Assembly (NCBI GenBank): GCA_043801445.1
Contig: JAZDMB010000030.1
Location: 78,178 to 142,177, forward strand
Length of the DNA: 64,000 nt
Reading direction: 5' to 3'
DNA from: Planctomycetota bacterium
Lineage (GTDB): Bacteria; Planctomycetota; MHYJ01; JACQXL01
Within the stretch, counting starts at the first letter, position 1; each line of letters opens with the position of its first letter. The notes below the pieces were generated by a model, which did no database searches, was not told where the DNA came from, and was given only the letters and a program-made list of their open reading frames with translations. This document shows positions 3,617 through 50,802 of the stretch, one piece after another. The position numbers were made by a program, and so were the translations under genes.

Positions 3617-3865
3617 TAATGATGAAACCACGGATACACACTGATAAACACTGATTTTCATTATTCGTATTAATCAAATCCATAAATAAACACAGATTAT
3701 CTGCGTTCATCTGCCTGCCTACTTGGTGTTAATCTGTGGTTGCAATTTTAGATATCATCATTTTTGGAATATAATCATTCTTACAAATTAATCTTCAATT
3801 TATTTGACCTGACTCATATCGAATGTTATGCTTTATAAAAAGTCATAGGATTCCTATAAAATAAT

Positions 3866-5379: not shown

Positions 5380-5584
5380 AGGAGTGAAGTTAAGCCACCG
5401 ATTACACAGATTGAAAAGATAGTAAGCGGATTGAACTGATAATACGCCTATACGGGTGTTAAATCAGATTACTCTTTAATTAAAAATTAATCGGTGAAAT
5501 TCGGACATAAATATAAATTAAACAACAAATTACACTGATTTAATAACTTAATCTGTGTAATCTGTGGCTAAATGATTAATCATT

Positions 5585-7998: not shown

Positions 7999-8283
7999 AT
8001 TTAGGTGAGAGTTAACCGGGTGACACACACCTTCCGATAAGACCTCCTCCATAGGCGGACAGGCGTTAAATATTTGCGAAGCCGCAGCGAAGTCCCGATT
8101 GTTCATCGGGGACTCGCAGGTTAAATTATCGCTTAATTAATTGTATGGGATTTCAAAGAAGCCACAGATTAAATTTGTGTAATTTATATTTATTAACCGA
8201 ATTCCACCGATTAAGTTAAATCTGTGGCTTAGGGACTTCTGGTTCATATATTTCTCTGTGTCTCTGTGGCTAATTATGTGGTT

Positions 8284-8727: not shown

Positions 8728-8916
8728 TAGGCTGTCTAAAAAGCAACCACAGATACACACCAAGTAGGCAGGCAGATGGACACAGATAAATCAGTAGGTA
8801 GTAGGTAGAAAATAGTAGGTAGGAAAAACTCCCTACATTCTATCTCTTATAATATCAGTGTTTATCCGTGTTAATCTGTGGTTACGAAGTTTTCTTGAAA
8901 TAAAGGAGGATTTTAT

Positions 8917-10329: not shown

Positions 10330-10436
10330 CAGCCTTTGCTGAGCTTCTCAGCCCGTTAGAAGCCTCGCTTTCAACATGTGATATAATTTTATTCGTCTCT
10401 TTACCCCGTTGAGTTGCTTCTAACGGGGCAGGCGGA
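10326..10436 (+). repeat. hairpin-forming dispersed element, copy 1 (…gcagtagcag…cccgttagaagc / gcttctaacggg…gcaggc)
   Basis: 12-bp perfect inverted repeat cccgttagaagc/gcttctaacggg around a ~50-nt loop. Immediately 3' of the purF-like gene. Confidence 0.6.
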
Positions 10437-10539
10437 AATCATAGGGGTTGTAGAATTAGGAGGCGAGGTGTGTATCACTAGACCTTGACGAGATTTGTCA
10501 ATGTGTCTCTCGAGATACATAATTAATTTTGGAGAAAAG

Positions 10540-11559: not shown

Positions 11560-11721
11560 CATGCCAGAGGCCCTCCATAGGCGGGTAAACAGGTAAACGG
11601 GCAGGCAGTAGCAGAACAGGGTTGCATCTTCACCCCGTTAGAGTCGCAACAGCCGAATGGATTAAACCAAAACAAAACCCATATCACACATTACGAACGA
11701 CTCTAACGGGGCAGGCAGATT
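11560..11721 (+). repeat. hairpin-forming dispersed element, copy 2
   Basis: 'gggcaggcagtagcag...ccccgttagagtcg / cgactctaacgggg...caggcag'. Stem carries compensatory changes relative to copies 1 and 3 (gagtcg/cgactc vs gaagc/gcttc). Confidence 0.6.
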
Positions 11722-12759: not shown

Positions 12760-12859
12760 TACTCGAGTACTTAGTACTAAAGTATCTTAGCGGCTAAATT
12801 CACCTGTGCCCGTAGGGTATACTTTCCTATACCGCGAGAAATCAGAAAGGAGAAATATT

Positions 12860-13834
12860 ATGAAAAACAGTGCAGCGATTCTGTTATTGGTAGTATTGGT
12901 AACTGTTTTTAATTATGGTTGCGGAAGCAGCAGCAGTGGTAGTTCTACCACCGCCGGGTCCACGACGGCCGTGGATGACTATGTTTGGGTGGCAAATTCT
13001 GGCGCTGTTACCCGCATTCTGAAATCAGATCCTGCTATCAGCACCACGATTACCGCGGGAGGTGGACGGGGAGTCGCAGTAGATGAAACCTATTGCTGGG
13101 CGGTAGAACAGGGCTCTAATTATATCATCCGCATCCTGAAATCAGACCCCGCTATCACGTCCACGATTGTGGTAGGAACTAACCCCTTTGGAATCGCGGT
13201 TGACGGGACCTATTGCTGGGTAGTAAATACTGGGTCTGCTAATGTCACCCGCATCCAGAAATCAAATACTGCTATTAGCGCCACGATTGGCGTGGGAAGT
13301 TCACCCCAGGACATTGCGGTAGACGCGACCTATTGCTGGGTGGCAAATCAGGGTAACGGCGCTAATAGTGTCACCCGCATCAAGAAATCAGACTTAACCA
13401 CGACCACGATTGCCGTAGGAACTAATCCCACCGGAATCGCGGTAGATGAGACCTATTGTTGGGTGGCAAATTATTATGATAATAATGTCAGCCGTATCTT
13501 GAAATCAAACCCGGCTATCAGCGACACGGTTACGGTGGAAAGTCGTCCAGTTGGAGTCGCGGTTGACGGAACCTATTGTTGGGTGGCAAATTATATTTCT
13601 TGCACTGTCACCCGCATCAAGAAATCAGACTTAACCACGTTCACGAGTCCGGTGGGAACTTCCCCTTGTGGAGTCGCGGTAGACGGAACCTATGTCTGGG
13701 TGACAAATTCTGTTGCTAATACTGTCACCCGTATCCTGAAATCAGACTTAAGCACAACCGCGATTGCGGTCGGAACTACTCCCGTATCGTTGGGCGATAT
13801 GACCGGCTATGCCTACGATAATTACGCCCGGTAG
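12860..13834 (+). CDS. YVTN-family beta-propeller repeat lipoprotein
   Basis: Lipobox 'NYGCGSSSSG'. About eight consecutive ~40-aa repeats 'TYCWVANxGxxxVTRIxKSDxxxxTTIxVGxxPxGIAVD' (YVTN 40-residue repeat). Confidence 0.65.
   Translation: MKNSAAILLLVVLVTVFNYGCGSSSSGSSTTAGSTTAVDDYVWVANSGAVTRILKSDPAISTTITAGGGRGVAVDETYCWAVEQGSNYIIRILKSDPAITSTIVVGTNPFGIAVDGTYCWVVNTGSANVTRIQKSNTAISATIGVGSSPQDIAVDATYCWVANQGNGANSVTRIKKSDLTTTTIAVGTNPTGIAVDETYCWVANYYDNNVSRILKSNPAISDTVTVESRPVGVAVDGTYCWVANYISCTVTRIKKSDLTTFTSPVGTSPCGVAVDGTYVWVTNSVANTVTRILKSDLSTTAIAVGTTPVSLGDMTGYAYDNYAR
12990..13790 (+). repeat. intragenic tandem repeat (~120 bp unit x ~7-8) encoding the YVTN propeller blades
   Basis: Recurring DNA blocks '...acctattgctgggtggcaaat...gtcacccgcatc(c/a)(a/t)gaaatcag...' visible at ~120-bp spacing. 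Confidence 0.7.
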
Positions 13835-17846: not shown

Positions 17847-17849
17847 ACT

Positions 17850-18750
17850 TGACTAAATTATTGTTGTTCTTGTTAAGCATTTTATTTTCTGATTAATATT
17901 TCATATCCCATATTTCTTAACTTTCTTGTTCATATTCCTGCTTGTTGGCATAGGTAGGGGTGTTAGTAAAATTTCTACGGGATACTCGTTAACGGCGAGG
18001 AATACCAAGCCATTCCGGATGGACATTTCATAAACCCTATATTACATCTGGGTTTTGGCGATGACTATCATCCGTCACCTTTAAGTAGGGCAGTTGTGCG
18101 ATAAACAGGCATACCTCTAACACCTTATTTCAGGCAGGTCACAGACTCATCTATCCTTGTAGTCAAATATCCCTAAGATATATAGGTTGGTCGCCTATAT
18201 GTGCTTATTTTATAGGATATACCGGTATAGGCTCTATTGGGTGGTAGGGGATACCCTACCCCCATACCACCAATACCATACCCCTTATAACTTATTCATA
18301 TACCTGATACTATCCTGTGATATATAGTATATACACCGGTAACCGAATATGTATTACCTTATATACTTACTGATACTACGATGTAGTCCATCTGATAGTA
18401 TATGTTATACTACAGGATAATATCAGATAATACAATGTTTAGTCAGGTATATTATATCGTATAGTATTGCATATGATAATTCATACTACCTTATAGTATA
18501 TAGTATAGTATGGGATAGATCAACTCATAGCATGGCATAGTCACACTATGTGGCATAGTTAGACACAGATACCGTATAGGTGAAATTCATTACAGAGAGT
18601 AATATACGGAAAATATATAATTATATTGACCCCATTAGAGATAATTGATATGGTTTACATATATGATAACCCCTCTGTCCCTGCGGGACTACGGGATAAC
18701 TGCCCGTAATTCTTCCCGACGGGACTCAAACAGGCAGTAAGGAGGTGTAA
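17850..18750. other. ~0.9 kb non-coding block of skewed, word-repetitive composition (tata/gtat/catag/ggtag words; near-palindrome GGTAGGGGATACCCTACCCCC)
   Basis: No ORF of 60 aa or more on either strand. Contains 'gggtggtaggggataccctacccccataccaccaataccatacccc' and long runs of 'tatagtata/catagcatggcatag'. Word content resembles the repeat arrays at 47.9-50.1 kb. Confidence 0.5.
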
Positions 18751-18751
18751 T

Positions 18752-19531
18752 ATGCCGATGATAAGTAAGGTGGATATACCGGTAATACCTGATGTGAGGC
18801 CGCACCAGGATATGAGCAGTAAATGGGAGGAGAATAGCAAGAATAACGCCCAGACTGCGAATGAACGCCGTAAATGGCGCATCAAGAACGATAATGACTA
18901 CGGCCAGATTATCGCCACACCTGCCGCGGAGAAATATAAGGCACGGGTTCAATTTACATCCGCCGGCGGTAATGACCGAGATGCCGAGGATATCTACGTT
19001 ATGCACCGCAAGAAACTGCTCAAGTCATACAAGAAATACCAAAAAGGATTGGATATCGTCTATGCCGAGGATGGCAAGAAATTCAAAGAGGCGATAGAGA
19101 AGAAGAAGGGTAACTGGGAAGAGGGCATCGGCACAACATTGCGATTTACCGGCAGTCGCGCCAGAGGCAGGCAGGTAGTCTCGGTAGTCGGCAAATGGCT
19201 GACCGGCGACCCGGCTACAGTCGGTATTTTACCGGAGGGTTCTCAGATTGATGGCGGTCCTTATGACATTGCGCCGGAGCGGCTGAAAGCCACATTACGC
19301 GCCTCGTTGACCCAACTCCTGACCCAGACCGGCATAATTATATCCGAATCAGAGTATAACCCGGCTCTGATGCTCAGGCACAACAGCCGAATAAAGGATT
19401 TTCTCTCGCGGATGTCCGACCCGACTAAAGCCATCAATTGGTCAATAGACCGCCTGACTGATAAATCGTATTGTGTCTGGTACCTGAACCAGGGGCAGTT
19501 GTTTCTGGGCATCCAGATTTATGCGCCGTAG
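18752..19531 (+). CDS. hypothetical protein (ORFan; visibly GC-richer than flanks)
   Basis: Strong RBS 'TAAGGAGGTGTAATATG'. 259-aa ORF with no recognisable motif. Codon composition is GC-richer than neighbouring genes. Upstream leader has several short GC hairpins (tacggg-ataactg-cccgta; gtccc-tgc-gggac). Confidence 0.5.
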   Translation: MPMISKVDIPVIPDVRPHQDMSSKWEENSKNNAQTANERRKWRIKNDNDYGQIIATPAAEKYKARVQFTSAGGNDRDAEDIYVMHRKKLLKSYKKYQKGLDIVYAEDGKKFKEAIEKKKGNWEEGIGTTLRFTGSRARGRQVVSVVGKWLTGDPATVGILPEGSQIDGGPYDIAPERLKATLRASLTQLLTQTGIIISESEYNPALMLRHNSRIKDFLSRMSDPTKAINWSIDRLTDKSYCVWYLNQGQLFLGIQIYAP

Positions 19532-19715
19532 GAACGTGAAACCACAGATAGACACGGATAAACACTGATTTTTATATGGGTTAATCAAATCCCGATTAAA
19601 CACTGATTATCTGTGTTCATCGGTGTTCATCTGTGGTTGTCATACCTGTGGCAGATCCGCCTTTGGCGGACAGTTTTCTTGACCCCGTTTGGAATATTTT
19701 ATATATTCATATAAT

Positions 19716-32175: not shown

Positions 32176-32688
32176 TTACATCCTATGGGTATGACAGATA
32201 GCAATTGCCAGAGCATCTGAGATGTCATAAGGTTTGGGTATTGTATCTAAAGATAAAAGGTGTTTAACCATTTCAGCCACCTGGCTTTTATCAGCCCGTC
32301 CGTTGCCGGTGACACTCTTTTTCACTTCTGCAGGGCTATATTCATAGACAGGCGTTTTGGTTATAGCTGCAACGAGTAATGCGATGCCCCTTGCCTCGCC
32401 TATTTTTATGGTTGCTTGCACGTCTTGAGAATAAAATACTGTTTCTATGGCTATTTCATCAGGTTTGTGTTGTTTGATTATCTTGAATAGCTCTTGATAA
32501 CTGATGAGCAAACGGGATGCCAGATTACTAACATCAGATATTAACTTAAAATTCTTAATTTGAGATGTGGAATTTTTAACTGAAGTTTTGATTGCTCCAC
32601 AAGTAATAATTTTTAAGTTAGATTTCTCTGATTGAATAATTCCATAACCGATTATTAGCGTGCCAGGATCAATACCTAATATAATCAT
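32176..32688 (-). CDS. ruvC: crossover junction endodeoxyribonuclease RuvC
   Basis: 'MIILGIDPGTLIIGYGII' N-terminus and ~165 aa size are characteristic of RuvC. Confidence 0.85.
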   Translation of the reverse strand: MIILGIDPGTLIIGYGIIQSEKSNLKIITCGAIKTSVKNSTSQIKNFKLISDVSNLASRLLISYQELFKIIKQHKPDEIAIETVFYSQDVQATIKIGEARGIALLVAAITKTPVYEYSPAEVKKSVTGNGRADKSQVAEMVKHLLSLDTIPKPYDISDALAIAICHTHRM

Positions 32689-43636: not shown

Positions 43637-43798
43637 ATATGTTTTTCAACATTTTATACTAAAGATAAATTAACTTAGCAAGAAGAAAGAGAAAGATATG
43701 ACAATTAATCTGTGTAATCTGTGGCTCAAGTTTAGCTCCTAAAAAGCCGATAAATACTTAACATCACTAATATATAATTCTTCAACAAGGAGTATGTT

Positions 43799-46345: not shown

Positions 46346-47530
46346 ATGATGAAAAGAGAAATCACGAACGCCCCGAAGTTATCGGGACGGAGTTTATCCC
46401 GCTGTTGGCGGGGTTGCGACTTCGCAAAACAATGGTTTCTTATTCTCCTGACCTGTCTTTTACTGGTTGCCTCTGTTGCCTACGCCGATAAAGAACAACC
46501 ATCTGATTTAACGCCTTCTATCAACACACCTATAACACCTACCGCTGTTTCCGGCATTCCCCTTAAGGTTCATTACATAGATGTTGGGCAGGCGGATTGT
46601 ATTCTTATCCAGATTCCAAATGGCAAAAATGTTCTCATTGACGCAGGTAATAGCTGTGACGCGGATAAAATAGTTTCTTATCTTCAACATCAAAAAGTTA
46701 AGAAATTAGATAACGTAATAGCCACACATCCGCACGCAGACCATATGGGCGCAATGGATACAATAATCAACAAATTTGATGTTGGTAAATTTATAATGCC
46801 TAATGCAACCTCTATTTCCAATACATTTAGTAAGGTAGTTACCACAAATATTGCATATATTGAAAAGCATCTTGAGATTACCTACGCCCATCCGGGGTTA
46901 CTAATAGACCTCAGTCCCAATATAACCGCACAAGTTATAGCGCCAATCTCTCCTACTTATCAAGGCAAGGACAAAGAAAATAATTATAGCATTGTTATTC
47001 ATTTGGAATTCGGCAAAACTTCCTTTTTATTTATGGGTGACGCGCTAGAAGAATCAGAAAATGAAATACTCAAATCCGGATTTGATATTAAGTCTGATGT
47101 ATTGAAAGTCGGCCATCACGGAAGCAAGACATCTACCGGCACAAGTTTTTTACGGAAAGTTCACCCATCGTATGCTGTTATTCCTGTCGGTAAAAACAAT
47201 ATATATGGACATCCTAAACAGATCACTTTAAAGAGACTTGAAGATGATAGGGTGCAAGTATTTAGAACAGACGAAAGCGGGACAATACTAATAGAATCCG
47301 ATGGCAAGGATTTAAAAGTTACTACTGAACGTAAACCAGAAAGCATACAAACAGGTTCTAAAAAAGCTGACGAAAACCCGGAAGAAGTTAAGATTTATGT
47401 TACAAGGACAGGGACAAAATACCACCGTGCCGACTGTGAATATTTAGCCAAGTCAATGATACCAATTTCGCTTAAGGAAGCCAAAAAGAGAGAGTATGAA
47501 CCTTGTAAGGTATGCAACCCTCCTAAGTAG
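46346..47530 (+). CDS. metallo-beta-lactamase fold protein (ComEC C-terminal domain-like)
   Basis: 'VHYIDVGQADCILIQ...VLIDAG', 'ATHPHADHMGA' (HxHxDH), 'KVGHHGS'. C-terminal 'YHRADCEY...CKVCNP' Cys-rich tail. Confidence 0.65.
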   Translation: MMKREITNAPKLSGRSLSRCWRGCDFAKQWFLILLTCLLLVASVAYADKEQPSDLTPSINTPITPTAVSGIPLKVHYIDVGQADCILIQIPNGKNVLIDAGNSCDADKIVSYLQHQKVKKLDNVIATHPHADHMGAMDTIINKFDVGKFIMPNATSISNTFSKVVTTNIAYIEKHLEITYAHPGLLIDLSPNITAQVIAPISPTYQGKDKENNYSIVIHLEFGKTSFLFMGDALEESENEILKSGFDIKSDVLKVGHHGSKTSTGTSFLRKVHPSYAVIPVGKNNIYGHPKQITLKRLEDDRVQVFRTDESGTILIESDGKDLKVTTERKPESIQTGSKKADENPEEVKIYVTRTGTKYHRADCEYLAKSMIPISLKEAKKREYEPCKVCNPPK

Positions 47531-47984
47531 GCAACGACTTGCGGGAGTCCCGACCGAACGTCGGGGGATGCCTGCCTGCGCTAAAGCTTCGGCGGGTAAT
47601 CCATACCTAATTATCCATCCGTAAAATCTGTTTTATCAGTTTAATCCACTTACAGATTCTTCGTATTTCTTACACACTAATATTAAATCCGTGTTCATCT
47701 GAGTTCATCTGTGTCCCATATTTCTTTGCGGTGAATCTTCTCTTAACCTACCTACTACCTACTTCATACTGCATACTACATACTATTAATTCGTGTCAAT
47801 CTTGTGAAATCTGTGGTTACGTTTCGGTTTTTATTTACCGTATTCCTCTTTCTTCTATCCGTAAGGATACCATAAGTAACGGGTTTGTTACTTATCCGGC
47901 AGGTATGAGAAATGAAGGTTTCATCTAACTTCTTGATTTGAAATGGATTAGAAAAAATAAAAAAATATGCAGAAATCCGAAAAT

Positions 47985-48250
47985 AGCACTCTCTGTTACT
48001 TATGGGGACCTATCCACTACGGGATTCTACCCTACCTACCTATGGTTATATGGGGTATATCCTATGGTTAGTAGGGATACTACCTATGGTTATATGGGGT
48101 ACTACCTATGGTTAGTAGGGATACCTCCTATGGTTATATGGGATACTACCTATGGTTATATGGTATACCTCTACTGGAGGGTACGGTATCCCCCCTGGGT
48201 AGGTAGGGTAGTATAGGGGGGAGATAGGGGGATGGGGGTATACCTAATTT
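47985..48250 (+). repeat. degenerate tandem array (~22-bp unit 'tacctatggttatatgggGatac', ~8 copies) ending in a G-run block
   Basis: Unit copies are visible directly. Ends '...ggggggagatagggggatgggggtatacc'. Read-through ORF 47938-48216 is periodic and judged non-coding. Confidence 0.75.
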
Positions 48251-48647
48251 TGGTAAAGTGATGCCTTAAAACTGGTTTATATCGTTGGATTAACTAAAGA
48301 CGGTGGGTGTCATTAAGCCAAGTGTATAGTATAAAGTATGAAGTAGGTAGTATGTAGAAGGTAGGAGAAGAGAAGACGTAAGATTTGCCACAGATTAAGC
48401 GGATTTGGCGGAATGCCTCAAATAAACGGTGAATTGTCTTGACAAAGGATTAGGGAATATGTATTAATTCACAATAGATATGGATAATTCGGGTGACGCT
48501 CTCCTACGCTCTTTGAGCGGAGTTTATCCCGCTCACAGCGGGGGAAGGGCAAGCCATACCGCATAGTTAAGATGTCCACGGAATTATGCGGGTGACAGCA
48601 TACTGAATTCCAATAATAAATATGTATTATGTATCCTGAATATAAAT

Positions 48648-49337
48648 ATGAAAAAAGTATTTAACTTTCTGATTGTTATTGGGTTATTTATTATCGCTTA
48701 TATATGCTGGAAGTATCATGACGAGATTCGTAAAGATTGGTATTTATACTCAACTCTTATCCTTGCAAGCATTGCTATCTTTCAAGACCCAATAAAACGA
48801 TGGTGGAATAAACCAATATTAGTTTTCACCCACAAGGAAACAAGCCCTTTCAGAAGAGAAAATACACTACTTATAGAACCTACTCTAACAACTTCTAAAG
48901 TTCTTAGTACCTATGAATGTTTTATGGTAGAAAACAATGGACGAGGTTCTGCTTTACAATGCCGATGCCAAATTCGTGAAGTAAGACAAAATGGTAAATC
49001 TTTTGGTTGTTACAGAGGATATCCTTTACATTGGGCCCGTAGGCCAGATGCAGAAATTGACCCATTGAAAGCTGAAAGACTTAATATTGGTCCAGGGGAA
49101 AGCGAGTTTCTAGATTTATGTTTCACCGCGTCTATAGATTCCGATATCCATTTAGCAAAATATCATACAATACCTATCGGTATTCCCGACTTCATTCCAT
49201 CTGGCGTATATGAGGTTAAATTAATATTTAGTGGTGATAATTTTAAACCGTATTTCATAGTCTTTGAGATTAAAAAAGATAACTCAGCGAATATCAATAG
49301 TATCAGTGTCAAACTAATAAAATACTGGCAAGGATAA
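48648..49337 (+). CDS. hypothetical membrane-anchored protein (ORFan) enclosed by inverted repeat arrays
   Basis: N-terminal TM helix (FNFLIVIGLFIIAYICW), Cys-containing soluble domain. No family recognised. Confidence 0.45.
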   Translation: MKKVFNFLIVIGLFIIAYICWKYHDEIRKDWYLYSTLILASIAIFQDPIKRWWNKPILVFTHKETSPFRRENTLLIEPTLTTSKVLSTYECFMVENNGRGSALQCRCQIREVRQNGKSFGCYRGYPLHWARRPDAEIDPLKAERLNIGPGESEFLDLCFTASIDSDIHLAKYHTIPIGIPDFIPSGVYEVKLIFSGDNFKPYFIVFEIKKDNSANINSISVKLIKYWQG

Positions 49338-49595
49338 CTTACTAATTCGGGGGGACACCCAGCACATAACGGAATTATGTGCTGGGCAGGCCCTAATTCA
49401 TAATTCTTAATTATTAAAACTCTATGCCTTCAGACACCTTTCTACATCCTGATTCCGGTAAGGATATCCGCACAGACGAGACATTAATTGAATTCTGAAG
49501 ACACCACACCTAATTCGCACTTATTCTGACCCCCAAACCCCCATTTTCGGCTATTTTCGTTATTACAAAACCTTATAAATCAACCACTTATACAG

Positions 49596-50100
49596 GCAGG
49601 GGGGGGTATACCCCCTCTACTGCCTCAGTAGAGGGCATCTACTGGATTATTAACCCATATCTCCTGAGGTAGTAGGTGGCGTCTGCTGAGGTATCTGACC
49701 ACCTCTCCTAAGATAGTAGACTGTATCTGCTGAGGTACCTGACCATCTCTTCTGAGATAGTAGACGGCATCTGCTGGATTGTCAACACCCCGCCACTGAG
49801 TTAGGGGGTGGTATCTGCCGGATTGGCAGCCCATGTCTCCTGAGATAGGGGATAGTATCTGCTGGATTATTAACACATCTCTCCTGAGGTAGTAGACGGT
49901 ATCCGGTGAGTTACCCGACCATATCCCCTGAGGTAGTAGATGGTATCTGCTGAGGTATCCAACCATATCCCCTGAGGTAGTAGATGGTATCTGCTGAGAT
50001 ATCCAACCATATCCCCTGAGATAGTAGATGGTATCTGCTGGATTGTCAACACCCCTCCACTGAGTTAGGGGGTAGTATCTGCTGAGTTACCTCCACCCTG
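49596..50100 (+). repeat. degenerate tandem array (~45-bp unit 'ccatatcccctgaggtagtagatggtatctgctgaggtatccaa', ~9 copies), inverted relative to the 47985-48250 array
   Basis: Unit contains 'ggtatccaaccatatcccctgaggtag', which resembles the reverse complement of the upstream unit ('ggtatccccatataaccataggtag'). Begins with the palindrome 'ggggggtataccccc'. Confidence 0.7.
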
Positions 50101-50127
50101 ATTAGAAATTTTGGTTGTTAGATTATG

Positions 50128-50269
50128 GTTCGGCAGGCAGTAGCAAGACACTGATGCAGTAGCAAGTTTTCTGGGCTTCTCAGCCAGTTAGAAGCGTCCT
50201 TTGAATGAGATGTAAGGCTTTCTGATAGGTTATTATTTTCTCTTGGTTTCGCTTCTAACGGGGCAGGCT
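50128..50269 (+). repeat. hairpin-forming dispersed element, copy 3
   Basis: 'ggcaggcagtagcaag...cagccagttagaagcg / cgcttctaacggggcaggc'. Lies between the tandem array and the gatC 3' end. Confidence 0.6.
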
Positions 50270-50296
50270 CCCGACCAGAATGACGAGGGATAATCA

Positions 50297-50623
50297 TTAT
50301 TCTATAATTCTCGGCACCTCGAAGAAATTACCTTTCCGTTTTGGCGCATTTTGGAGCGCTTTGTCAGGTGTCAATGAATTCTGATGTGCCTTATCATCCC
50401 GCCAAATACCCGCCTGACCGGCCGTCAGTTCGGGCAGGTTCAAGTGTTTTTCGTCCAAGGAATGTATTAATGGCTCGATATTAGTTACGTCTATTTCCTT
50501 AAGGCTGTCCACATAAGCGAGTATCTCTGACATGCCTTGTTTGAGTGATTCTTTGTCTTGAGGAGATACGGAAAGCCGCGCCAGTGAACAAAGATGCTCG
50601 ATAAGTTTATCGTCTATTTTCAT
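50297..50623 (-). CDS. gatC: aspartyl/glutamyl-tRNA amidotransferase subunit C
   Basis: 'MKIDDKLIEHLCSLARLSVSPQDKESL...ILAYVDSLKEIDVTNIEP...NFFEVPRIIE' matches GatC over its full length. Start taken at the internal Met. Confidence 0.75.
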   Translation of the reverse strand: MKIDDKLIEHLCSLARLSVSPQDKESLKQGMSEILAYVDSLKEIDVTNIEPLIHSLDEKHLNLPELTAGQAGIWRDDKAHQNSLTPDKALQNAPKRKGNFFEVPRIIE

Positions 50624-50802
50624 AGTGAATTTCCTTACTAACCACAAGATTTCACAAGATTAACACGAGAAAATAACCTTTATATAAAATCTGGTGAAAA
50701 TCTCGTGCTAATCTCGTGGTTTATATTTACCTACTACTACCATTCCCTCAAGCGGGACAAATTAGTGTCCCATTATTAAATTTAATAAATCTGTGTACTT
50801 AT

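What the first reader, a model, noticed from the sequence alone, without database searches (positions are those of the whole stretch)
48215..49625. G-run / GGGGGTATACCCCC palindromes mark the inner edges of the cassette
The 5' array terminates in 'ataggggggagatagggggatgggggtatacc' and the 3' array begins 'ggcaggggggggtataccccctctactgcc'. Both inner boundaries therefore carry the GGGGGTATACC core; the second copy is a perfect palindrome, GGGGGTATACCCCC. G5-N-G5-N-G5 runs are G-quadruplex-competent, and palindromic GC-rich cores of this kind are typical recombinase or resolution-site cores. A near-palindrome of the same flavour, 'ggtaggggataccctaccccc', lies in the 18.2-kb odd block.
Basis: seen in the sequence. 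Interest (0 to 1): 0.55.

Follow-up and report, generated by a model that had tools for sequence, protein, structure and literature searches.

The report
Hairpin that starts 22-bp repeat arrays
The G-run/GGGGGTATACCCCC palindromes are not the edges of a mobile cassette: each is the conserved G-run/C-run hairpin that starts a 22-base tandem repeat array, an undescribed array family in anammox-related Planctomycetota that usually lies beside a sigma/anti-sigma gene pair whose anti-sigma carries a DNA-binding domain.

Summary
GGGGGTATACC is at 48234-48244 and 49602-49612. The second copy is the perfect palindrome GGGGGTATACCCCC inside G8-TATA-C5 (49599-49615). The only canonical G4 motif of the window is 48197-48238.

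The interpretation mostly fails. No recombinase gene was found in the window, and the sequence left of the right-hand copy is a conserved leader, not an insertion junction.

Related loci show a family with this layout: leader (TTATAAATCAAYC), hairpin (G5-9, N4-6, C5-6), C-rich first units, then 11-20 units of 22 nt. In 185.6 kb of such sequence the motif G>=5 N3-7 C>=5 occurs 8 times, 6 of them within 60 nt of an array end.

The window holds three members: 49528-50109 (forward), 48036-48312 (reverse, G-run lost) and a decayed one at 18180-18600. The two palindrome copies face each other only because two arrays diverge around a horizontally acquired ORF.

In 6 of 9 loci with a sigma plus anti-sigma(zf-HC2 + DUF2582 winged-helix) pair, such an array lies within 1.3 kb. 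The predicted winged helix is closest to the centromere binder AspA. Uncultured plasmids use the same GGATACCNTACC core as iterons next to rep.

Best reading: a protein-binding lattice with a boundary hairpin. Binding is untested, and a neutral minisatellite remains a serious rival.

The parts
49528..49598 (+). Leader of the 3' array element (GACCCCCAAACCCCCATTTTCGG ... TTATAAATCAACC at 49573-49585 ... CAGGCA)
   Evidence: It aligns with the sequence between the DUF2582 stop codon and the hairpin in L072, L088 and L087. In L072 the same stretch holds a promoter-like TTGACG-18-TATTAT. No equivalent site was scored in the window.
49599..49615 (+). Start hairpin G8-TATA-C5, containing the perfect palindrome GGGGGTATACCCCC (49602-49615)
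   Evidence: As single-stranded DNA, 49590-49640 folds at -11.4 kcal/mol, z -2.3. Homologous hairpins sit at array starts: L001 G6TGTCTAC5, L060 G9TGTCTAC5, L072 G6ATAGTC5, L088 G6AGGTAC6, L090 G5TGGCATC6.
49616..50098 (+). 3' array: 11 units of 44 nt (two 22-nt halves, ATCCCCTGAGGTAGTAGATGGT + ATCTGCTGAGGTATCCAACCAT), preceded by a small palindrome CTCTACTGCCTCAGTAGAG at 49615-49633
   Evidence: TRF finds period 44, 9.7 copies. Register is shown. Autocorrelation peaks at lags 44, 22 and 66. A period that is not a multiple of 3 argues against coding. There is no consensus RNA structure.
50089..50109 (+). Right boundary motif ACCTCCACCCTGATTAGAAAT
   Evidence: It matches the right boundary CACCTCCCCCCTGCAAGAAAAT of the L001, L067 and L060 elements. 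Its reverse complement resembles the left end CAGGGGGG..., so the ends form short terminal inverted repeats.
48036..48167 (-). 5' array: six well-formed 22-nt units. On the minus strand they read TATCCCATATAACCATAGGTAG alternating with TATCCCTACTAACCATAGGTAG.
   Evidence: TRF finds period 22, 6 copies. Searches show the register and the minus strand.
48168..48244 (-). Start of the 5' array read on the minus strand: truncated hairpin GGTATACCCCC (48244-48234), then C-rich first units ATCCCCCTATCT / CCCCCCTATAC..., then GGATACCGTACCCTCC (48191-48176). The plus strand carries the G-runs and the G4 motif 48197-48238.
   Evidence: blastn finds 85% identity over 53 nt to the L001 array in reverse orientation. 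The CCCCCCTAT motif also follows the hairpin in L001, L067, L060 and L072.
48245..48312 (-). Diverged leader of the 5' array (…GATATAAACCAGTTTTAAGGCATCACTTTACCAAAATTA on the minus strand)
   Evidence: It aligns weakly with the other leaders; the hairpin's G-run is replaced by TCACTTTACCAAAATTA. This is the weakest part of the assignment.
48648..49337 (+). ORF229, a real gene lying between the two divergent arrays. It is not part of the array element.
   Evidence: It has 24 homologues. The 71%-identical copy in L001 lies directly upstream of the sigma/DUF2582/array module and next to a Tsp45I-type restriction-modification system. There is no Pfam, PADLOC or PHROG match.
18180..18600 (+). Third, decayed 22-nt-period array (about 19 units). 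It starts with the imperfect palindrome GGGTGGTAGGGGATACCCTACCCCCATACCACC (18239-18271) and C-rich units.
   Evidence: Autocorrelation peaks at lags 22, 66 and 44. Register is shown. GGATACCCTACCCCC (18249-18263) is an exact match to the first unit of L060. The hairpin folds at -10.7 kcal/mol.
18752..19531 (+). ORF (259 aa, no Pfam family) of the 'X26x' protein family that accompanies the sigma/DUF2582 modules elsewhere. It lies just downstream of the third array.
   Evidence: It is 23-30% identical (E 1e-8 to 5e-32) to L001_5474, L074_947, L089_329, L089_3633 and L090_3718. No Pfam or PDB sequence match was found.
47736..47786 (.). Arm A of a 51-nt, 82% inverted repeat. The partner arm A' is at 48326-48376. 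The pair brackets the reversed 5' array.
   Evidence: I1. It may mark a past inversion of 47787-48325. This was not tested, and both arms are CTAC/GTAG-rich low-complexity sequence.

Best explanation
Each palindrome is the start element of a 'leader - G/C hairpin - 22-nt tandem array' unit. This unit family is specific to a lineage of Brocadiia-related Planctomycetota. The window holds three units: one forward (49528-50109), one reversed with its G-run lost (48036-48312) and one decayed (18180-18600). Two of them diverge from either side of a horizontally acquired ORF. Because the hairpin is a palindrome, its two copies read as direct repeats at the 'inner edges'.

Most likely mechanism, which is inferred and not shown: the array is a DNA-level protein-binding lattice. 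It has one site every two helical turns, 11-20 sites in all, and works in the manner of plasmid iterons or partition centromeres. Its usual partner is a neighbouring gene pair, an ECF-like sigma factor and an anti-sigma factor whose C-terminal DUF2582 winged helix resembles the spreading centromere binder AspA. The G-run/C-run inverted repeat lies directly after the upstream gene. It would act as the boundary of the lattice, either as a terminator-like hairpin or as a dimer/nucleation site; its arms (A)TACCCCC repeat a unit sub-motif in inverted orientation. Arrays grow, shrink and change unit sequence by slippage or unequal exchange with concerted evolution. The window's copies have lost the sigma/anti-sigma genes and are probably orphan or decaying.
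For: Family and position (shown):
- The hairpin motif is rare and sits at array ends: 6 of 8 occurrences in 185.6 kb lie within 60 nt of an array end.
- The leader, hairpin and right boundary of the window's 3' array align with L001, L067, L060, L072, L087 and L088.
- The 5' array start matches the L001 array in reverse orientation, 85% over 53 nt.
- The 18.2-kb site has 22-nt periodicity and an exact 15-mer match to the first unit of L060.

Module link (shown):
- 6 of 9 DUF2582 loci carry an array of 11.5-19.6 units of 22 nt within 1.3 kb: L001, L060, L072, L088, L089, L090.
- Unit sequences differ widely between these loci, yet the period is always 22 (44 in the window's 3' array).
- L001 has the gene order ORF229 homologue - sigma - DUF2582 - hairpin - array. 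The window is the same layout without the two regulator genes.

DNA-binding reading (inferred):
- The DUF2582 model (pLDDT 84) is closest to AspA, the pNOB8 centromere-binding protein (4rs8, 5k5q; target TM 0.73, rmsd 1.7 A). ArsR and MarR winged helices follow.
- The core GGATACCNTACC at 22-nt spacing is used as iterons directly downstream of RPA-family rep genes on uncultured plasmids.
- Window unit 48191-48176, GGATACCGTACCCTCC, is identical over 16 nt to the L071 iteron.
- The units have no consensus RNA fold. A period of 22 or 44 excludes coding.
Against: - No binding data exist.
- The arrays do not co-vary with the adjacent winged-helix protein. L060's protein is 25% identical to L001's but its array is 87% identical. 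L088's protein is 88% identical but its units differ. L087, at 91%, has the hairpin and tail but no units.
- L067 carries an L001-type array after a pseudopilin operon, with no DUF2582 gene.
- The window has no sigma, DUF2582 or Rep gene.
- The shared plasmid-iteron core was selected by my own search pattern. I estimate 0.1-1 such families by chance and found 1-3 independent ones.
- BLAST of the arrays against PLSDB found nothing.
- Uneven conservation within units can also arise from duplication genealogy.
- In L067 the C-run is degraded, so that hairpin cannot form.
Confidence: 0.45

Rival explanations
1. Neutral or selfish minisatellite seeded at a terminator-like hairpin. Stable G-run/C-run hairpins just after stop codons stall replication. 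The adjacent roughly 22 nt are duplicated by template switching, then expand and contract by slippage, and concerted evolution homogenises each array. On this view the palindrome is just the seed or terminator and the array has no function.
For: - Turnover at orthologous sites is rapid: L001 has 18 units, L088 has 11.5 different units and L087 has none.
- Stand-alone hairpins occur right after stop codons without arrays (L013, L087).
- First units resemble the hairpin's 3' arm (TACCCCC / CCCCCCTAT).
- The window's arrays are orphaned and one is decayed.
- The related Kuenenia genome is reported to hold 260 short tandem repeats (PMC5854607).
- Arrays do not co-vary with the neighbouring protein.
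Against: - Independent seeding should give varied unit lengths, yet every array has period 22 or 44, and 5 of the 6 module-linked arrays have 17-20 copies (L088 has 11.5), although their unit sequences are largely unalike.
- The association with the sigma/DUF2582 module persists across 25-51% protein identity.
- The same array type, with a conserved roughly 100-nt tail, occurs at unrelated loci: L001 versus L067.
Confidence: 0.25
2. A transcribed repeat RNA. The leader is a promoter, the G/C hairpin is a protective 5' stem-loop, and the 22-nt units are repeated binding sites for an RNA-binding protein or a sponge, in the manner of CsrB/RsmZ. Alternatively the element is a structured 3' UTR of the upstream gene.
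For: - The leader contains a conserved TATAAAT-like element about 20 nt before the hairpin.
- L072 has TTGACG-18-TATTAT at the right place.
- In 6 of the 7 array loci where the upstream gene could be read (L001, L060, L067, L072, L088 and the window's 3' array; not the window's 5' array), hairpin and array lie on the same strand as that gene and directly after it.
- Units contain GGA motifs.
Against: - No Rfam family matches in the window.
- RNAalifold on the units gives -2.2 kcal/mol with no covariation.
- The small ATCCA/TGGAT inverted repeat in L001 units is broken, not compensated, in variant units.
- No promoter-like site was scored in the window's leader.
- The hairpin stems never covary: G is always 5' and C always 3'.
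Confidence: 0.15
3. The two GGGGGTATACC copies are crossover cores or target-site duplications that delimit a mobile or invertible cassette carrying ORF229.
For: - ORF229 was acquired horizontally (78% nucleotide identity to L001).
- Synteny with the closest relative ends at gatC.
- In L001 and L067, copies of the hairpin motif flank the array in direct orientation, and L087 looks like an 'empty' site.
- A 51-nt inverted repeat brackets the 5' array.
Against: - No recombinase or transposase family matched any of the 30 window ORFs scanned against Pfam, which cover 14.1-56.4 kb.
- The sequence immediately left of the right-hand copy is the conserved leader, which precedes the hairpin in loci without any cassette.
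- The palindrome has no central spacer.
- Elsewhere one hairpin goes with one array.
- An exact 11-mer pair within 3 kb is expected by chance (D9).
Confidence: 0.06
4. A functional G-quadruplex or i-motif element at 48197-48238 that acts as a replication or transcription barrier or switch.
For: It is the only canonical G4 motif in 64 kb and has the top G4Hunter score, 2.60.
Against: - The four-run arrangement was not seen at the starts of the other family members examined by eye (L001, L060, L072, L087, L088), where I counted only one or two long runs.
- The 3' copy has a single G8 run.
- The tract is explained as the complement of C-rich first units.
Confidence: 0.04

Closest known systems
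Plasmid iterons with Rep operator inverted repeats (wHTH initiators such as RepA of pPS10 or pSC101; here the RPA family, PF10134)
   Same: Both are tandem direct repeats of 22 bp, two helical turns. Both have a conserved 10-13-nt core and a variable remainder. Both have an inverted repeat, built from part of the unit, at one end of the array. The literal core GGATACCNTACC is shared with iterons found directly after RPA-family rep genes on uncultured plasmids.
   Different: There is no rep gene, no DnaA boxes and no clear AT-rich unwinding element. The arrays are chromosomal and present at several loci. They have 11-20 units rather than 3-7. The partner gene is an anti-sigma factor, not an initiator. 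The pPS10 operator analogy comes from memory and was not tested.
Partition centromeres made of tandem repeats and bound by small DNA-binding proteins (ParR-parC, TubR-tubC, AspA of pNOB8)
   Same: Both are long arrays of short direct repeats next to the gene of a small DNA-binding protein. The DUF2582 domain's best structural match is AspA.
   Different: No ParA-, ParM- or TubZ-type motor gene is nearby. The winged helix is fused to a zf-HC2 anti-sigma domain. The array lies downstream of the gene, not in its promoter.
Intergenic minisatellites / VNTRs such as mycobacterial MIRUs
   Same: Both are intergenic tandem repeats of tens of bases at operon ends. Both vary in copy number and unit sequence between close relatives.
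   Different: The period is fixed at 22 nt. The elements have a conserved leader, hairpin and tail, and a recurrent gene partner.
REP/BIME-type palindromic elements and MITEs
   Same: Both have GC-rich palindromes after genes and dispersed copies with short terminal inverted repeats (CAGGGGGG ... CCCCCCTG).
   Different: The body is a long tandem array. No RAYT or transposase gene and no target-site duplication were found.
CRISPR arrays (leader plus repeats)
   Same: Both have a conserved leader at one end of a regular array.
   Different: There are no unique spacers, no cas genes, and the units abut directly.

Membership tests
Hairpin-led 22-nt arrays of Brocadiia-type Planctomycetota (family defined here from L001, L060, L067, L072, L088, L089, L090) | G-run / short loop / C-run inverted repeat within 60 nt of one array end | tested here: met
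   The 3' array has G8-TATA-C5 one base before the array. The 18.2-kb array has an imperfect copy. The 5' array keeps only GGTATACCCCC.
Hairpin-led 22-nt arrays of Brocadiia-type Planctomycetota (family defined here from L001, L060, L067, L072, L088, L089, L090) | Unit period of 22 nt or a multiple of it | tested here: met
   TRF finds periods 22 and 44. Autocorrelation peaks at lags 22, 44 and 66 for all three window arrays.
Hairpin-led 22-nt arrays of Brocadiia-type Planctomycetota (family defined here from L001, L060, L067, L072, L088, L089, L090) | Conserved leader TTATAAATCAAYC about 12-14 nt upstream of the hairpin | tested here: met
   The motif is at window 49573-49585 and aligns with L072, L088 and L087. 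For the 5' array the match is only weak, and the leader is absent in L001, L060 and L067.
Hairpin-led 22-nt arrays of Brocadiia-type Planctomycetota (family defined here from L001, L060, L067, L072, L088, L089, L090) | Adjacent ECF-like sigma plus zf-HC2/DUF2582 anti-sigma gene pair | tested here: not met
   tblastn of these proteins against the window finds nothing better than E 0.2. Only the accessory X26x protein is present, at 18752-19531.
Plasmid iterons / oriV | Tandem direct repeats of 17-22 bp in helical phase | tested here: met
Plasmid iterons / oriV | Cognate rep initiator gene next to the repeats | tested here: not met
   An HMM built from six metagenomic RPA Rep proteins finds no ORF in the window, L001 or L067. 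Pfam scans of 30 window ORFs (14.1-56.4 kb) found none.
Plasmid iterons / oriV | Adjacent AT-rich unwinding element or DnaA boxes, and replication activity | tested here: inconclusive
   An A/T-rich run at 47945-47975 lies about 60 nt beyond the distal end of the 5' array. No repeated 11-13-mers like those in the plasmid loci are present. Replication activity cannot be tested with these tools.
Site-specific recombination core (att, res, dif, inverton inverted repeat) | Recombinase gene in or next to the element | tested here: not met
   Among the 30 window ORFs scanned against Pfam (14.1-56.4 kb), the only recombination enzyme is housekeeping RuvC at 32176-32688.
Site-specific recombination core (att, res, dif, inverton inverted repeat) | Two core copies that are the junctions of the mobile segment | tested here: not met
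   The right-hand junction is contiguous with a conserved leader in loci that have a single hairpin.
Site-specific recombination core (att, res, dif, inverton inverted repeat) | Variant (excised or inverted) forms in reads or strains | not testable with these tools
   No reads are available and no second assembly of this population was found. Three exact-protein look-ups for the window found nothing on record.
Canonical G-quadruplex motif | Four runs of G>=3 with loops of at most 7 nt | tested here: met
   Met at 48197-48238 only, with G4Hunter 2.60. Not met at 49599-49615.
Canonical G-quadruplex motif | Conservation of the G4 potential in homologous elements | tested here: not met
   By eye, I counted only one or two long runs at the starts of L001, L060, L072, L087 and L088. 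No G4 regex was run on these loci.
Intrinsic (rho-independent) terminator | GC-rich hairpin followed by a T-run | tested here: not met
   The hairpin is present, but the scan found 0 terminator-like sites in 47400-50400, and no T-run follows the hairpin in any locus.
Known RNA families (Rfam 15) | Covariance-model match at the gathering score | tested here: not met
   0 matches in the whole window. No tRNA or tmRNA either.
CRISPR array | Repeats separated by unique spacers | tested here: not met
   The units abut head to tail.

The most novel reading that the evidence does not exclude
The arrays are docking lattices for a DNA-tethered anti-sigma factor. An AspA-like winged helix fused to a zf-HC2 anti-sigma domain would coat about 18 phased sites that start at the G/C palindrome. 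This would park its ECF-like sigma factor on the chromosome until a signal releases it, for example cleavage by the adjacent trypsin-like protease, or competition from incoming plasmid DNA that carries the same GGATACC-type iterons. That would be a new kind of sigma-factor control, or a decoy-iteron device, housed in islands rich in restriction-modification and toxin-antitoxin genes.
Probability: 0.12. Interest if true: 0.8.

Novelty: new variant of a known kind. Interest (0 to 1): 0.55.

Why it matters
The result turns an isolated-looking palindrome into one member of a recurrent, apparently undescribed element of anammox-related Planctomycetota: leader, hairpin and a 22-bp array. It also links that element to a sigma/anti-sigma module whose anti-sigma factor carries a centromere-binder-like winged helix.

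If the arrays are binding lattices, they would give a directly testable example of iteron- or centromere-style DNA architecture recruited to chromosomal gene regulation or to plasmid interference.

If they are neutral, they are a clean case of hairpin-anchored minisatellites with a fixed 22-bp period. In that case they would be useful strain markers for uncultured Brocadiia.

Either way the 'recombination cassette' reading can be dropped.

Tried and rejected
- Target-site duplication or insertion of 48245-49601 at GGGGGTATACC. Rejected, because the right junction is a conserved leader.
- The two arrays as a true long inverted repeat. Local alignment is weak: score 27 against 17.4 +/- 2.1 for shuffles, and 24 in direct orientation. 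They share motifs and start architecture, not overall sequence.
- Coding repeats. Rejected because periods 22 and 44 are not multiples of 3.
- RNA structure in the units. RNAalifold gives -2.2 kcal/mol, and Rfam finds nothing.
- Finding the source genome or strain variants. Exact-protein look-ups failed, and the array 25-mer was absent from GTDB species representatives.
- Synteny. The closest relative (L010, 87% aa) continues after gatC with a sigma-54 activator and has no arrays. The left border of the non-syntenic block could not be found.
- BLAST of the arrays against PLSDB plasmids. One marginal hit, then none.
- Viral-contig scans with other unit cores, plus two shuffled controls. Results were 3, 5 and 1 hits against 0 and 1 for the controls, which is not informative. 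The first viral scan (GGATACC x3) gave heterogeneous arrays, including one in a giant-virus-like contig that ends in GGGGGGTTTACCCCCC. I judged this a coincidence.
- Array units recurring in the sigma gene's own upstream region. Convincing only in L089 (11/12, p about 0.005) and absent in L001, so inconclusive.
- Uneven conservation across unit positions. Significant, but also expected from duplication genealogy, so not used as evidence of selection.
- PADLOC, PHROGs and PDB sequence searches for ORF229, sigma, DUF2582 and X26x. Nothing useful.
- Literature searches. Nothing on these arrays.
Full report
OBSERVATION. GGGGGTATACC occurs at 48234-48244 and 49602-49612. The second copy lies inside G8-TATA-C5 (49599-49615) and contains the perfect palindrome GGGGGTATACCCCC. 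A one-mismatch copy, GGGGGGATACC, is on the minus strand at 48185-48195 (4 matches against 0.57 expected). Of the 29 G or C runs of at least 5 in the window, 14 fall in 47563-50072. The only canonical G4 motif of the 64 kb is 48197-48238, and it has the window's highest G4Hunter score, 2.60. An exact 11-mer pair within 3 kb is not significant on its own; one search contains a chance 12-mer pair. The case therefore rests on position and on homology elsewhere.

ANATOMY IN THE WINDOW. The 5' array is six 22-nt units (48036-48167) followed by decayed, G-rich units up to 48244. The 3' array is eleven 44-nt units (49616-50098), each made of two 22-nt halves. Periods of 22 and 44 exclude coding repeats.

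Read on the minus strand, the 5' array begins at 48244 with GGTATACCCCC | ATCCCCCTATCT | CCCCCCTATAC... | GGATACCGTACCCTCC... and then runs into the regular units.

The 3' array has three flanking features:
- A 70-nt leader (49528-49598) containing TTATAAATCAACC.
- The hairpin (49599-49615).
- A right boundary, ACCTCCACCCTGATTAGAAAT (50089-50109).

The 905-nt non-coding stretch at 17847-18751 also has 22-nt periodicity over 18180-18600, with top autocorrelation lags of 22, 66 and 44. The window therefore holds three arrays of one kind, not two arrays and a stray motif.

CONTEXT. The genes between 14 and 47 kb are largely housekeeping: cysS, ispH, ruvC, ETF, dnaG, rpoD and iPGM, alongside an efflux pump, TPR/RCC1-repeat proteins and several ORFs without a family match. 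The arrays lie between an MBL-fold ComEC-like gene and gatC. No recombinase, integrase, transposase or Rep family matched any of the 30 window ORFs scanned against Pfam, which cover 14.1-56.4 kb; the ORFs at 1-13.8 kb and 56.4-64 kb were not scanned. ORF229 (48648-49337) is a real gene with 24 homologues. The best database hit names the source as a Planctomycetota MAG. In the closest relative available (L010, 87% aa identity in GH57), synteny stops exactly at the gatC stop codon and continues with a sigma-54 activator, with no arrays.

THE FAMILY. Locus L001 is a Hainich groundwater contig with the gene order MTase - Tsp45I - ORF229 homologue (71% aa, 78% nt) - sigma-like gene - DUF2582 gene - GGGGGGTGTCTACCCCC - 18 units of GGATACCATACCCATCCATAGT - a conserved tail of about 100 nt. 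It was assembled independently three times (L001, L002, L003). Part of its array matches window 48159-48210 in reverse orientation, 85% over 53 nt.

A metagenome scan for GGATACCNTACC at 22-nt spacing found the same element type in two further places:
- L067 (identical to L055), after a pseudopilin operon and so at a different locus.
- L060.
Both share the left hairpin, the C-rich first unit, the last unit and the tail.

Homologues of the DUF2582 protein led to more loci:
- L072: a 51%-identical paralogue from the same sample, with leader, G6-ATAGT-C5 and 17 units of AAAGATTAGCCATACGCCTTGG.
- L088: an 88%-identical orthologue, with leader, G6-AGGTA-C6 and 11.5 units of AGTATCCTCTCCCGGTCTATGT.
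- L087: a 91%-identical orthologue, with leader, hairpin and tail but zero units.
- L089 and L090: 17 units each of yet other sequences, one gene further downstream, each with a G-run element at one end.
- L074 and L076: no array.

In 185.6 kb of window plus 15 such loci, G>=5 N3-7 C>=5 occurs 8 times. Six occurrences lie within 60 nt of an array end, a zone that is 1.3% of the sequence. One is the 'empty' L087 site. One is a stand-alone hairpin right after a stop codon (L013).

WHY THE CASSETTE/RECOMBINATION READING FAILS. The leader immediately left of the right-hand palindrome aligns with the leaders of L072, L088 and L087. In those loci it lies between a stop codon and a single hairpin. 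That junction is therefore ancestral, not an insertion or crossover junction. The 5' array has its own diverged leader on the minus strand (48312-48245). The picture is two leader-hairpin-array units diverging around ORF229. Because the hairpin is palindromic, the two copies read as direct repeats. Compared with L001, the window looks like the same island with the sigma and DUF2582 genes lost between ORF229 and the leader; no remnants were found. A 51-nt inverted repeat (47736-47786 / 48326-48376) brackets the reversed array and could record an inversion. I could not test this.

WHAT THE ARRAYS MIGHT DO. Three points are shown.
(i) The period is constant at 22 nt, and 5 of the 6 module-linked arrays have 17-20 copies (L088 has 11.5), across arrays whose unit sequences share little beyond GGATAC-like cores.
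(ii) The arrays recur next to an ECF-like sigma gene and a zf-HC2 anti-sigma gene with a C-terminal DUF2582 winged helix, in 6 of 9 loci. These loci often also carry an unannotated X26x protein and a divergent trypsin-like protease operon, in neighbourhoods rich in restriction-modification and toxin-antitoxin genes.
(iii) The window keeps an X26x homologue right after its third array.

Three further points are supportive but indirect. An AlphaFold model of the DUF2582 protein (pLDDT 84) has as its best PDB match AspA, the pNOB8 centromere-binding winged helix that spreads on DNA (4rs8, 5k5q; target TM 0.73, rmsd 1.7 A), followed by ArsR and MarR repressors. In the metagenome scan, 8-10 of the 17 loci are plasmid-like contigs in which perfectly identical 22-nt units GGATACCGTACC... 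directly follow an RPA-family (PF10134) rep gene, with ParA nearby and a T-run plus 11-mer repeats beyond. In other words, they are iterons. Window unit 48191-48176 equals the L071 iteron over 16 nt. I therefore favour a DNA-level protein-binding lattice, with the G/C inverted repeat as its boundary. The arms of that repeat, TACCCCC, are an inverted copy of a unit sub-motif.

COUNTER-EVIDENCE. The arrays do not co-vary with the neighbouring winged helix: 25% protein identity goes with 87% array identity in L060, 88% protein identity goes with different units in L088, and L087 has no units. L067 has no DUF2582 gene. The plasmid-iteron match was pre-selected by my search pattern; I estimate 0.1-1 families by chance and found 1-3 independent ones. 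PLSDB holds nothing similar. Uneven conservation within units can come from duplication genealogy. A neutral, hairpin-seeded minisatellite therefore remains a serious rival. An RNA role is weaker: no Rfam hit, no unit structure and no covariation, although L072 has a good promoter-like site in the leader. G4 potential is real for 48197-48238, but the four-run arrangement was not seen by eye at the starts of the other family members.

VERDICT. The palindromes are the start hairpins of a recurrent array element that I could not find described. Confidence is high (about 0.85) that they belong to this family and mark array starts. Confidence is moderate (about 0.45) that the arrays are protein-binding lattices, as opposed to neutral minisatellites (0.25) or RNA genes (0.15).

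Noticed in passing
window 48648-49337; L001 10001-10669; L004 4101-4802: ORF229 is a conserved small protein of about 205-233 aa. By eye it has two N-terminal hydrophobic helices. It has no Pfam, PADLOC or PHROG match. In other genomes it sits beside a Tsp45I-type restriction-modification system, and in Pacearchaeota it sits inside a type I restriction-modification operon. It is a candidate defence-island gene.
   Followed up: partly
window 3617-3760, 5380-5580, 8140-8230, 8728-8900, 19532-19640, 43700-43730, 47640-47820, 50640-50720; also L072 5120-5150: A separate intergenic repeat family is built from AACCACAGAT ... (A)ATCTGTG direct repeats ... ATCTGTGGTT. It lies after many genes. Some copies carry GTAGGTAG/CTACCTAC tracts like the inverted-repeat arms at 47736-47786 and 48326-48376.
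   Followed up: no
window 10330-10440, 11600-11720, 50150-50265; also L074 4640-4740, L090 4620-4720: A long hairpin family, CCCCGTTAGAAGC ... GCTTCTAACGGGG, recurs in intergenic regions of this lineage.
   Followed up: no
window 7999-8120, 48484-48612, 49345-49405; L001 10680-10720: AATTCGGGKGAC followed by a long GC-rich hairpin and ...CCTAATTC recurs directly after genes. It looks like a terminator or REP-like element.
   Followed up: no
window 47736-47786 and 48326-48376: A 51-nt inverted repeat (82% complementary) brackets the reversed 5' array and its leader. Inversion between the arms would put that array in the canonical orientation behind the MBL gene.
   Followed up: no
window 50297 (gatC stop) versus L010 2462: Synteny with the closest relative (GH57 - DUF4912 - gatC) ends exactly at the gatC stop codon. 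The relative continues with a small ORF and a sigma-54 AAA+ activator, and it has a GxxExxY-type gene inserted between DUF4912 and gatC.
   Followed up: partly
window 46346-47530: The MBL-fold ComEC/Rec2-like protein has its nearest named relatives in Firmicutes (42-55% identity) and only one close homologue (83%). It also matches PADLOC MBL-type models (LmuA, RTasMBL). It was probably acquired horizontally along with the array region.
   Followed up: partly
window 13070-13782 (inside ORF 12806-13834): Tandem repeats of about 120 nt (5.7 copies, 69% matches) lie inside a coding region, so this is a repeat protein unrelated to the 22-nt arrays.
   Followed up: no
whole window: Several palindromic hexamers are strongly avoided: CCTAGG 0 and GCTAGC 0 against 8.5 expected; ACTAGT 1, and ACATGT, AGATCT, TGATCA and TGTACA 2 each, against 20.8 expected. 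GTATAC occurs 7 times against 20.8 expected, and 3 of the 7 lie in the array region.
   Followed up: no
L058, L061, L063, L064, L068, L069, L071 (metagenome contigs): Uncultured plasmid-like contigs carry RPA-family (PF10134) rep genes followed directly by 3-6 perfectly identical 22-nt iterons GGATACCGTACC + 10 variable nt. A T-run and TCTTTTAAATA 11-mer repeats follow, and ParA is nearby. In L068 the array is preceded by the palindrome TACCGTACGGTA, made from the iteron core.
   Followed up: partly
L087 1053-1110 versus L001 12079-12095 and 12537-12575: An orthologous DUF2582 locus (91% aa) has the hairpin and tail but no repeat units. In L001 and L067 the array is flanked by direct copies of the hairpin motif (GGGGGGTGTCTACCCCC ... 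GGGGGTGTACCCAC..CCCCCC). This fits either array loss by recombination between those copies or an unoccupied site.
   Followed up: partly
L052 1420-1600 (IMG/VR contig with PCNA- and eIF4E-like genes): A giant-virus-like contig has a 44-nt tandem array with GGATACC cores between convergent genes. The array ends in GGGGGGTTTACCCCCC. The likeness to the Planctomycetota array starts is probably coincidental.
   Followed up: partly
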